The notes under the pieces were generated by a model. That model was given only the letters and a program-made list of their open reading frames with translations. It made no database searches and was not told the origin of the DNA. Shown here piece by piece: positions 55,363-56,441 of a stretch of DNA of 64,000 bases; within the stretch, counting starts at the first letter, position 1, and each line of letters begins with the position of its first letter. The stretch comes from Neisseriaceae bacterium (lineage in GTDB: Bacteria > Pseudomonadota > Gammaproteobacteria > Burkholderiales > Neisseriaceae). Location of the stretch: assembly GCA_017458185.1 (NCBI GenBank), contig JAFTFY010000008.1, positions 12,315 to 76,314 of the forward strand, in the 5' to 3' direction. Made by a program: the position numbers and the translations under genes.

Positions 55363-55626
55363 GTTTTAATCCTTTCAAAGAAAAGTGGAGTGGAACAATT
55401 ATCGTTTTACAAGTGTACCTTGTCAAACTCCCATATACAGTCAGTATAGGAGTTATAGACAAGAAAGAAACTCACACGGTGTGAGTGTTTTAGGCAATCT
55501 ATTAAAAAAAAATAACAATGTAAAAATTCTTTCAGGCAGCCTGAAATATGATTAAACGCAAATTGAAAATGCGAAAAATAGTGTATTATCGCCATTTTCA
55601 ACACAATAGATGATAAGGATTGAACA

Positions 55627-56043
55627 ATGGGCATGTTAGACAATGTCTTGGGACAAGTGTTGGGCAGTAACAAAGATAACGCCACTGCATTGAAATTATT
55701 GCAAAGTTTGGTATCGCAACAAGGCGGTATGGCGGAAGTTTTTAAAAAATTGCAAGCAGGCGGTTTGGGACCTGCGTTAGCGTCTTGGGTTGGTCAAAAC
55801 GACAATCAAGCGGTGAGTGCAGACGCCATGGCAAACGCTTTGGGCGGTGATTTGCTGTCGAAAATTGCTAATCAAGCGGGCGTGAATAACACCGAAGCAT
55901 CAAGTTTGTTGGCACAATATTTACCGAATATGATTAACCAACTCACACCACACGGCGATGCTGCCGAAGCCGCTAAATTCGATTTATCAGACGGCTTGGA
56001 TATGAAAGATTTAACCGCTTTGGCAAGTCAATTTTTCAAATAA
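55627..56043 (+). CDS. YidB-family protein (DUF937)
   Basis: MLDNVLGQVLG.., GGL..LASWVGQ..NQAVSADAM and ALGGDLLSKIA are typical of YidB/DUF937. Confidence 0.75.
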   Translation: MGMLDNVLGQVLGSNKDNATALKLLQSLVSQQGGMAEVFKKLQAGGLGPALASWVGQNDNQAVSADAMANALGGDLLSKIANQAGVNNTEASSLLAQYLPNMINQLTPHGDAAEAAKFDLSDGLDMKDLTALASQFFK

Positions 56044-56071
56044 CTATTGTGCTGTGCATAACGCTATTCAT

Positions 56072-56099
56072 TTGACAATGCGACAAAAAAGCGTACAAT
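56072..56099 (+). promoter_or_regulatory. near-consensus sigma70 promoter (TTGACA-N16-TACAAT) of a non-coding unit
   Basis: TTGACA lies at 56072-56077 and TACAAT at 56094-56099. No ORF follows on the plus strand. Confidence 0.55.
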
Positions 56100-56105
56100 A
56101 AAGAC

Positions 56106-56318
56106 ATTCCCTGCGGTGTTCGATTTCAGCATATACTCCTTTGAACCAATACATTCGCTTTTGGGGGTGAAAGTTTGATGGGCGTGCGCGTTCCGTGTGA
56201 ATGTACCCGAAATCAGACGGCACTTACCGACCTTACCACAAGGTTCAAGCGATTTTCGCTGTAACGGCACTCGCGGGGTATTTAATATTTAAAGACGGCT
56301 GTGCCGTCTTTTTGTTTT
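56106..56318 (+). ncRNA. candidate structured sRNA of about 210 nt (possibly 6S-like; identity unverified)
   Basis: The promoter sits just upstream. Long-range pairings CCCUGCGG/CUCGCGGG, UCAGC/GCUGA, UUGAACC/GGUUCAA and UACAUUC/GAAUGUA give a rod with a large internal loop. The terminator gacggc-tgt-gccgtc plus a T-run lies at 56293-56318. No credible ORF is present. Confidence 0.5.
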
Positions 56319-56323
56319 GAAAT

Positions 56324-56431
56324 TATAGTCGATTCACAGCAAAATCATGCAGCGTAACGATAGCCTTGCCGTATTATTTATACTGTCGCAGGCAAAGTTG
56401 CCTTGCCTGTTTTTGCTGTGAACCGACTATA
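56324..56431. mobile_element. Correia-like repeat-enclosed element (108 bp), inverted orientation
   Basis: The termini are TATAGTCGATTCACAGCAAAA ... TTTTGCTGTGAACCGACTATA. Confidence 0.85.
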
Positions 56432-56441
56432 TTTTGACTAC

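What the first reader, a model, noticed from the sequence alone, without database searches (positions are those of the whole stretch)
56072..56318. Promoter-to-terminator unit with no ORF: a candidate structured sRNA of about 210 nt, possibly 6S-like
A near-consensus promoter (TTGACA-N16-TACAAT, 56072-56099) is followed by about 170 nt of relatively GC-rich sequence.

That sequence can fold into a long imperfect rod with these pairings:
- CCCTGCGG (56109) with CTCGCGGG (about 56270)
- TCAGC with GCTGA
- TTGAACC with GGTTCAA
- TACATTC with GAATGTA

The rod encloses a terminal stem-loop and a large asymmetric internal loop. A clean intrinsic terminator follows (gacggc-tgt-gccgtc + tttttgtttt, 56293-56318).

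The only ORF here (56064-56270, minus strand) has no RBS or coding character.

The size, the rod-with-bubble shape and short matches to E. coli 6S segments (UACCACAAG, GGUUCAAG) suggest 6S RNA. I cannot verify this by eye, and the usual zapA/ygfA neighbours of ssrS are absent.
Basis: partly seen in the sequence, partly recalled or inferred. Interest (0 to 1): 0.5.

Follow-up and report, generated by a model that had tools for sequence, protein, structure and literature searches.

The report
6S RNA gene, uncoupled from zapA
This is the bacterium's single, ordinary 6S RNA gene (the small RNA that mimics an open promoter to hold back RNA polymerase); its only unusual trait is that it has its own promoter and terminator after a yidB-like gene, in a lineage where its usual partner, the cell-division gene zapA, could not be found.

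Summary

- **Identity.** Rfam RF00013 matches 56105-56283 (+) over the whole model at 58.2 bits (gathering score 46.4). It is the only 6S match in the 2.13-Mb genome.
- **Structure.** Across 32 homologues from the same bacterial family (Neisseriaceae, judging by the record titles of its closest relatives), 22 of 47 consensus pairs show compensatory changes. 96% of cells are paired, against 32-46% when partners are slid.
- **Promoter and terminator.** The -10 hexamer, five of six -35 bases and the first bases of 6S are invariant in the four species sharing this arrangement.
- **Context.** In all 66 sampled family genomes that have both genes, zapA lies directly upstream of 6S. ZapA is undetectable here and in five congeners. 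The ancestral site holds no remnant, and 6S now follows a yidB-like gene with its own promoter.
- **Independent case.** Two genomes of another genus lost zapB-zapA in place and also kept 6S.

This scan has found 6S genes many times before on other DNA, nearly always after zapA.

Verdict: a known RNA family in a mildly unusual context. Low interest.

The parts
55627..56043 (+). yidB-like gene directly upstream. No terminator lies between it and the 6S promoter.
   Evidence: Pfam PF20159 YidB, 83 bits. No + strand terminator was found between 56043 and 56291. The yidB-6S linkage is shared with G029, G051 and G065.
56047..56061 (+). Conserved block TTGTGCT-N-TGCATAA, about -59 to -45 from the predicted start. 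Possible regulator site or UP-like element; function unknown.
   Evidence: 14 of 15 positions are invariant in the four species with this arrangement. The block stays next to the promoter in G065 although about 110 bp are inserted after yidB.
56072..56077 (+). -35 hexamer TTGACA
   Evidence: Promoter scan, 11 of 12 overall. TTGAC is invariant in four species.
56094..56099 (+). -10 hexamer TACAAT. The predicted transcription start is about A56106.
   Evidence: The stretch AAAAAGCGTACAATAAAG is invariant in four species. The -10 ends 5 nt before the first position of the 6S model.
56105..56283 (+). 6S RNA (ssrS), 179 nt by the Rfam model
   Evidence: RF00013: 58.2 bits, gathering score 46.4, model positions 1-187 of 187. 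Sole match in the genome.
56109..56122 (+). Closing stem, 5' arm
   Evidence: 13 pairs with 56265-56278. Compensatory changes occur in several of its columns.
56137..56147 (+). Helix bordering the central bubble, 5' arm (contains UUGAACC)
   Evidence: 9 pairs with 56242-56252. UGAACCAAUA is almost entirely invariant across the 32 homologues.
56148..56162 (+). Central bubble, 5' strand (15 nt). U56150 aligns with the E. coli position where product-RNA synthesis starts; this is an inference.
   Evidence: Unpaired in the consensus structure. The Rfam alignment places UGAACCAAU against the model's GAgCCgA segment. The identity of the E. coli start site is from my own knowledge.
56163..56228 (+). 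Apical arm: three helices and the terminal loop
   Evidence: Helices 56163-56169/56221-56228, 56174-56179/56212-56217 and 56183-56193/56199-56209. This is the region richest in compensatory changes.
56229..56241 (+). Central bubble, 3' strand (13 nt)
   Evidence: Unpaired in the consensus structure.
56242..56252 (+). Helix bordering the central bubble, 3' arm (contains GGUUCAAG)
   Evidence: AGGUUCAAGCG is almost entirely invariant across the 32 homologues.
56265..56278 (+). Closing stem, 3' arm
56291..56318 (+). Intrinsic terminator: 9-bp stem, loop TGT, T-rich tail
   Evidence: Terminator scan. The hairpin is kept in four species with varying loops and one G-C to A-T double change in G029. 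Most relatives also have a hairpin plus T run after 6S.

Best explanation
The unit is the genome's single ssrS gene, which encodes 6S RNA.

**Shown**
- A 179-nt sequence fits the 6S covariance model over its full length.
- Its rod shape (closing stem, large central bubble, apical stem-loop) is kept by compensatory changes across the bacterial family.
- A near-consensus sigma-70 promoter ends 5 nt before the RNA. An intrinsic terminator follows 8 nt after it.
- Promoter and terminator are conserved in the four species that share this layout.

**Inferred from the well-studied E. coli and B. subtilis 6S RNAs**
- The RNA mimics an open promoter and occupies the active site of the sigma-70 RNA polymerase holoenzyme when growth slows, damping housekeeping transcription.
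- On nutrient upshift the polymerase uses the bubble's 5' strand as a template, starting near U56150, to make a short product RNA. That unzips 6S and releases the enzyme.

**Inferred from the anatomy**
- In this lineage 6S is made as its own short transcript, about 56106 to about 56316 (roughly 210 nt). The 5' end is already nearly mature, and the 3' end may be trimmed back to about 56283.
- In other Neisseriaceae 6S must instead be cut out of a zapA-containing transcript or come from a promoter inside zapA.
- This change goes with the loss of zapB-zapA and the relocation of ssrS to a site downstream of yidB.
For: **Identity**
- RF00013: 58.2 bits (gathering score 46.4), E = 5.8e-9, model positions 1-187 of 187.
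- One match in the 99.8%-complete genome.
- One full-length 6S match in 74 of 81 family genomes searched.

**Structure**
- 47 consensus pairs, 22 with changes on both sides.
- 96.3% of cells paired, against 31.9-46.0% when partners are slid by 1-3 columns.
- 22 pairs with double changes, against a mean of 13.7 and a maximum of 18 in 500 shuffles.

**Promoter and terminator**
- 11 of 12 promoter matches, and a 9-bp terminator stem.
- The -10 hexamer, five of six -35 bases and the first 18 nt of 6S are invariant in G000, G029, G051 and G065. The promoter stays attached to 6S in G065 although about 110 bp are inserted after yidB.
- Among zapA-linked relatives the best promoter-like site within 45 nt of 6S usually scores 4-9 of 12 (10 in one). 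All six zapA-less genomes of this genus score 10-11.

**Context**
- ZapA lies directly upstream of 6S, on the same strand, in all 66 genomes that have both (coordinates).
- ZapA was not found here by Pfam, by tblastn with 20 family ZapA proteins, or by a family-specific HMM over all six frames.
- The ancestral site in this genome shows no remnant.
- 6S RNA is already listed as a structural RNA of N. meningitidis (PMC5449619).
Against: - The 5' and 3' ends and the use of this promoter are therefore predictions.
- The MFE of the single sequence is not exceptional (z = -1.29).
- The bit score is among the lower ones in the family (58, against 65-79 for many relatives).
- No terminator separates yidB from the promoter, so some 6S could come from read-through and processing.
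- RNA polymerase binding and product-RNA synthesis are inferred by homology only.
Confidence: 0.94

Rival explanations
1. The RNA is 6S, but it is made mainly as the processed 3' part of the yidB transcript, as 6S is cut from longer precursors in E. coli. The promoter-like hexamers would then contribute little.
For: No terminator-like site lies between the yidB stop (56043) and 6S. In the zapA-linked relatives 6S begins only 6-20 nt after the zapA stop, so the family evidently has processing machinery for such precursors.
Against: The promoter scores 11 of 12. The -10 hexamer, five of six -35 bases and the flanks of the -10 are invariant in four species, while the surrounding spacer varies. 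The promoter remains next to 6S in G065, where about 110 bp separate it from yidB. G058 and G071, in a third context, also carry a site scoring 11 of 12.
Confidence: 0.12
2. The stretch is some other structured sRNA or a yidB 3' UTR element, and the 6S model match is a chance resemblance.
For: The single-sequence folding energy is not significant. The score exceeds the threshold by only 12 bits.
Against: The match is full-length at E = 5.8e-9. It is the only candidate in a genome whose relatives almost all have exactly one 6S. It aligns continuously with those orthologues (63-75 bits by nhmmer). The 6S fold is supported by covariation.
Confidence: 0.03
3. The minus-strand ORF 56064-56270 (68 aa, GTG start) encodes a small protein, and the conservation reflects coding.
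For: The frame stays open in G029 and G051, and 21 of 32 family homologues have some stop-free antisense frame.
Against: - It has no Pfam match.
- In G065 the reading frame is broken into two frames.
- 11 of 32 homologues, including the congeners G058 and G071, have stops in all antisense frames.
- Substitutions preserve base pairs rather than codons.
- The alignment contains indels that are not multiples of three.
Confidence: 0.01

Closest known systems
6S RNA / SsrS (Rfam RF00013), as in Escherichia coli ssrS and the 6S RNA listed for Neisseria meningitidis (PMC5449619)
   Same: - About 180 nt long.
- Closing stem, central bubble and apical stem-loop.
- Conserved UGAACC / GGUUCAAG helix beside the bubble.
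- One copy per genome.
- Full-length model match above the curated threshold.
   Different: - It is not downstream of zapA and not upstream of ygfA.
- A near-consensus promoter sits so close that the primary 5' end should nearly equal the mature end.
- By my own knowledge, E. coli uses two promoters (P1 and P2) followed by RNase E/G trimming, and Rho-dependent termination into ygfA. Here an intrinsic terminator follows.
The ZapB-ZapA-SsrS-(FAU1/YgfA)-EVE gene array of beta- and gamma-proteobacteria (PMC7641849)
   Same: The bacterial family as a whole obeys it. In 66 of 66 sampled genomes with both genes, zapA lies directly before ssrS, usually preceded by a small coiled-coil zapB-like gene.
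   Different: In this genome ZapA, a zapB-like gene and EVE were not found. ygfA is on another contig. ssrS has moved to a site downstream of yidB. The paper states that ssrS always immediately follows zapA, and this lineage is an exception.
Bacillus subtilis 6S-1 (bsrA) and 6S-2 (bsrB), stand-alone 6S genes
   Same: They are free-standing 6S transcription units that are not tied to zapA (from my own knowledge; not tested here).
   Different: They belong to a different phylum, there are two paralogues, and the sequences are distant. Here there is a single copy of the proteobacterial type.

Membership tests
6S RNA / SsrS (RF00013) | Sequence-and-structure match to the family covariance model at or above the curated gathering score, over the full length | tested here: met
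   58.2 bits against 46.4, model positions 1-187 of 187, E = 5.8e-9. Same result in the whole-genome search.
6S RNA / SsrS (RF00013) | Rod-like fold with closing stem, large central bubble and apical stem-loop, maintained in evolution | tested here: met
   RNAalifold on 32 homologues gives 47 pairs, 22 with compensatory changes. 96.3% of cells are paired, against 32-46% when partners are slid, and the double-change count exceeds all 500 shuffles. Mapped to the window, with bubble strands of 15 and 13 nt.
6S RNA / SsrS (RF00013) | Size of about 180-200 nt and non-coding | tested here: met
   179 nt by the model, about 210 nt from predicted start to terminator. No conserved ORF on either strand.
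6S RNA / SsrS (RF00013) | Orthology: the single 6S locus of the genome, alignable with the 6S of relatives | tested here: met
   One match in the genome. One match each in 73 of 80 other family genomes. nhmmer aligns it to all 30 fetched relatives.
6S RNA / SsrS (RF00013) | Expressed as a discrete, abundant RNA that accumulates in stationary phase | not testable with these tools
6S RNA / SsrS (RF00013) | Binds the sigma-70 RNA polymerase holoenzyme and templates product-RNA synthesis | not testable with these tools
   This is a biochemical property. Only the homologous position of the E. coli initiation site (U56150) could be inferred from the Rfam alignment.
ZapB-ZapA-SsrS-(YgfA)-EVE array | ssrS immediately downstream of zapA on the same strand | tested here: not met
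   The upstream gene is yidB-like. ZapA is undetectable in the genome. The feature is met in 66 of 66 family genomes that have both genes.
ZapB-ZapA-SsrS-(YgfA)-EVE array | ygfA (5-formyltetrahydrofolate cyclo-ligase) or an EVE gene downstream of ssrS | tested here: not met
   ygfA is at C3:5236-5733, on another contig. No EVE gene was found. Downstream of 6S lie a repeat element and a convergent gene for an M48-like peptidase.

The most novel reading that the evidence does not exclude
In one subclade of an uncultured, ruminant-associated Neisseriaceae genus, the deeply conserved zapB-zapA-ssrS unit has been dismantled.

- The Z-ring accessory genes zapA and zapB were lost outright.
- The 6S gene was kept, moved to a new site and given a dedicated consensus promoter and intrinsic terminator.
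- A second, independent zapBA loss in small-genome relatives (G005, G040) also kept 6S.

Together these would be natural experiments showing two things. The ancient zapA-ssrS coupling is not needed for 6S function. And 6S is under stronger selection than ZapA.
Probability: 0.65. Interest if true: 0.3.

Novelty: already known. Interest (0 to 1): 0.15.

Why it matters
As an annotation it matters little. Any Rfam-based pipeline would call this ssrS, and 6S RNA is known in Neisseria.

The small added value is comparative. The zapA-ssrS linkage is regarded as almost universal in beta- and gamma-proteobacteria (PMC7641849), and this scan has met it in other bacterial groups as well. Here it holds in 66 of 66 sampled family genomes that have both genes. 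It is broken exactly where zapA is missing: six species of this genus and two of another.

These lineages could be used to ask whether co-transcription with zapA has any regulatory meaning for 6S. They also show that ZapA is dispensable in some Neisseriaceae.

Tried and rejected
- **RNA-seq evidence.** Expression is untested.
- **Nucleotide similarity to E. coli.** blastn 'distant' of 56060-56320 against all complete E. coli genomes found nothing. The relationship is visible only to the covariance model.
- **Single-sequence thermodynamics.** z = -1.29, which is not informative. I dropped it as an argument.
- **Antisense 68-aa ORF.** Rejected as coding.
Both rejected as non-homologous or not part of the conserved fold.
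- **A hidden zapA.** None found by Pfam, tblastn with 20 family ZapA proteins, or a family HMM with --max on all six-frame segments of 30 aa or more (best E = 0.01, scattered short hits). No zapB-like hits at E <= 0.01.
- **Remnants at the ancestral site.** tblastx found only the murU-like gene next to C39:33473-34162.
- **Wider distribution of the derived junction.** An exact-pattern scan of 185,579 species genomes for the -10/6S junction found only the three ruminant MAGs already known from the genus.

Full report
**What is there**

- The consensus scan finds TTGACA, a 16-nt spacer and TACAAT at 56072-56099. It scores 11 of 12 and is the best site in the 1.5 kb scanned.
- The same scan finds a 9-bp hairpin at 56291-56311 followed by a T-rich tail.
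- The only ORFs over the stretch are two minus-strand ones of 68 and 51 aa. The longer has no Pfam match.

**Identity**

- A scan of the whole window against Rfam 15 at gathering thresholds returns two matches: a tRNA, and 6S / SsrS RNA (RF00013) at 56105-56283 on the + strand.
- The 6S match scores 58.2 bits against a gathering score of 46.4, with E = 5.8e-9. It covers model positions 1-187 of 187 and is not truncated.
- The same model finds exactly one match in the whole 2.13-Mb, 40-contig, 99.8%-complete genome, and it is this locus.
- Among 81 genomes sampled from the same bacterial family, 74 have a match, each full-length and one per genome.
- nhmmer aligns the window's RNA end to end with all 30 fetched homologues.

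**Structure**

- Single-sequence folding gives a long rod, but its energy is unremarkable (-54.3 kcal/mol, z = -1.29). I give that no weight.
- An alignment of 32 homologues (A2) folded with RNAalifold gives 47 consensus pairs. 22 of them keep pairing through changes on both sides, mostly in the apical arm.
- In my own control, 96.3% of cells are standard pairs, against 31.9-46.0% when the 3' partners are slid by 1-3 columns.
- The 22 double-change pairs exceed the mean of 13.7 and the maximum of 18 seen in 500 column shuffles.

Mapped onto the window, the parts are:
- closing stem 56109-56122 / 56265-56278;
- helix 56137-56147 / 56242-56252, containing the nearly invariant UUGAACC / GGUUCAA;
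- central bubble of 15 nt (56148-56162) and 13 nt (56229-56241);
- three-helix apical arm 56163-56228.

This is the canonical 6S architecture.

- Two of the four pairings are right: the closing stem and UUGAACC/GGUUCAA.
- One is approximate. The partner of TCAGC reads GCTGT, not GCTGA.
- One is not part of the conserved fold. TACATTC lies in the bubble, and GAATGTA is the 3' arm of the apical hairpin.
- GGUUCAAG matches E. coli at the homologous position.
- UACCACAAG lies on the opposite side of the bubble from where I recall it in E. coli, so I take it as coincidence.

**Not coding**

- The antisense frame is open in the closest relatives. That is expected when the RNA is 80-90% identical.
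- It is split between two frames in G065.
- 11 of 32 homologues have stops in all three antisense frames.

**Context, the only unusual aspect**

- In the 30 fetched relatives, 6S is almost always preceded on the same strand by an ORF of about 100 aa that ends within 6-20 nt of the RNA. One locus (L027) shows no separate ORF of that size, but its ZapA match lies in the same position. Three such ORFs were tested, and all are ZapA (PF05164, 55-67 bits).
- Combining the 6S coordinates with a ZapA search of the same 81 genomes gives three groups. 66 genomes have both genes, and in all 66 zapA lies directly upstream of ssrS on the same strand. Two have ZapA without a 6S match. Eight have 6S without ZapA.
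- This matches the literature. It describes a ZapB-ZapA-SsrS-(YgfA)-EVE array ancestral to beta- and gamma-proteobacteria, with ssrS 'always immediately following ZapA genes' (PMC7641849).

In the window the upstream gene is instead a yidB-like gene (PF20159, 83 bits). ZapA cannot be found in this genome:
- not by the Pfam model;
- not by tblastn with 20 family ZapA proteins, nor by a family-specific HMM run without filters on all six-frame segments.

A zapB-like gene and an EVE gene were not found either. ygfA exists, but on another contig.

The gene that precedes zapB-zapA in the congeners is a murU-like nucleotidyltransferase. Here it sits at C39:33473-34162 and is followed by a 193-aa hydrophobic ORF and a gene that by its N-terminal sequence looks like pdxA (my reading; no family search was run). 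No zapBA or 6S remnant is present.

**Within the genus**

The genus has eight species representatives, and ssrS occurs in three contexts.
- G041 and G006 keep zapA-ssrS.
- G000, G029, G051 and G065 share yidB-promoter-ssrS.
- G058 and G071 have a third context with TTGACA-16-TAGAAT about 34 nt upstream of 6S.

ZapA was not found in any of the six genomes of the last two groups. Three of them are at least 99% complete.

An exact-pattern scan of the GTDB species collection for the -10/6S junction found only G029, G051 and G065. Their records are entitled 'MAG: Neisseriaceae bacterium', from water-deer reticulum and sheep omasum.

**The promoter is under selection**

- In the four-species alignment (A1), TTGAC of the -35, the stretch AAAAAGCGTACAATAAAG and the first 18 nt of 6S are invariant. 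The spacer and the sequence after the terminator vary.
- In G065 about 110 bp are inserted directly after yidB. The promoter, together with a conserved block at -59 to -45 (56047-56061), stays attached to 6S.
- The terminator hairpin is kept with variable loops and one G-C to A-T double change.
A start at about A56106 would give an almost mature 5' end.
- Among zapA-linked relatives, the best promoter-like site within 45 nt of 6S mostly scores 4-9 of 12.

**A second natural case**

Two small genomes of another genus (G005, G040) have 6S but no ZapA hit. There the murU-like gene is followed directly by 6S and then a methyladenine glycosylase gene. So zapB-zapA were deleted in place and ssrS was retained.

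**Mechanism**

- Shown: the identity, the fold, the promoter and terminator motifs, and their conservation.
- Inferred from E. coli and B. subtilis 6S (my own knowledge): sequestration of the sigma-70 holoenzyme by open-promoter mimicry, and release by product-RNA synthesis templated from the 5' bubble strand. U56150 is the counterpart of E. coli U44 according to the Rfam alignment.
- Inferred from the anatomy: this lineage makes 6S from a dedicated short transcription unit rather than from a zapA-linked precursor. Because no terminator separates yidB from the promoter, some contribution from read-through cannot be excluded.

**What could not be done**

Expression, RNA ends and abundance are therefore untested.

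**Comparison and verdict**

- 6S RNA is a textbook RNA. It is already listed for N. meningitidis (PMC5449619) and is detected here by the standard model above its threshold.
- Earlier reports of this scan describe many 6S genes on other DNA, almost always after zapA.
- The finding is therefore correct but ordinary.
- The uncoupling from zapA, with apparent loss of zapA and zapB in this lineage, is a modest comparative observation.

Noticed in passing
window 56324-56432: A repeat element of about 108 bp with terminal inverted repeats (TATAGTCGATTCACAGCAAAA ... TTTTGCTGTGAACCGACTATA) lies directly after the 6S terminator. It is reminiscent of Neisseria Correia elements. blastn gives 92 HSPs across the genome at E <= 1e-5, with some copies counted on both strands. 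In G065 an insert with similar ends (TATAGTCGGTTT ... AACCGACTATA), apparently a related copy, sits between yidB and the 6S promoter. Such elements may have mediated the rearrangement.
   Followed up: partly
whole genome G000; ancestral site C39:30001-35500: ZapA, a zapB-like gene and EVE-domain genes were not found in this 99.8%-complete genome, and ZapA was not found in five congeners. At the ancestral site the murU-like gene is followed by a 193-aa hydrophobic ORF and a pdxA-like gene. Loss of these Z-ring accessory proteins in a Neisseriaceae lineage may be of interest for cell-division studies.
   Followed up: partly
window 56047-56061: The block TTGTGCT-N-TGCATAA, at about -59 to -45 of the 6S promoter, is invariant at 14 of 15 positions in four species. 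It travels with the promoter in G065. It is not A/T-rich like a classical UP element and could be a regulator binding site.
   Followed up: no
L041 (G005:C3:115322-117997) and L042 (G040:C7:26387-29065): In two small genomes (1.3-1.4 Mb) of another genus of the family, zapB-zapA are deleted in place. The order there is murU-like gene, then 6S, then a methyladenine glycosylase gene. This is an independent zapA loss with 6S retained. Other members of that genus have only weak ZapA matches (26-32 bits).
   Followed up: partly
L035 (G058) and L037 (G071), about 34 nt upstream of 6S: This is a third ssrS context in the same genus, with TTGACA-16-TAGAAT placed so that a leader of about 30 nt would have to be trimmed. 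In G058 a ygfA-like gene lies about 1.2 kb upstream of 6S.
   Followed up: partly
A2 (32 family 6S homologues): 21 of 32 6S genes have at least one antisense frame with no stop codon over about 180 nt. This is more than the roughly 15% I estimate for random sequence. It is probably a by-product of conserved composition and shared ancestry, but I did not explain it.
   Followed up: partly
whole genome G000: The DNA uptake sequence dialect is GCWGCCTGAA: 2268 copies of GCAGCCTGAA and 2865 of GCTGCCTGAA, against 17 of the classical GCCGTCTGAA. Genome G+C is 41.5%. One copy lies at 55530-55546 as part of a minus-strand terminator-like hairpin.
   Followed up: no
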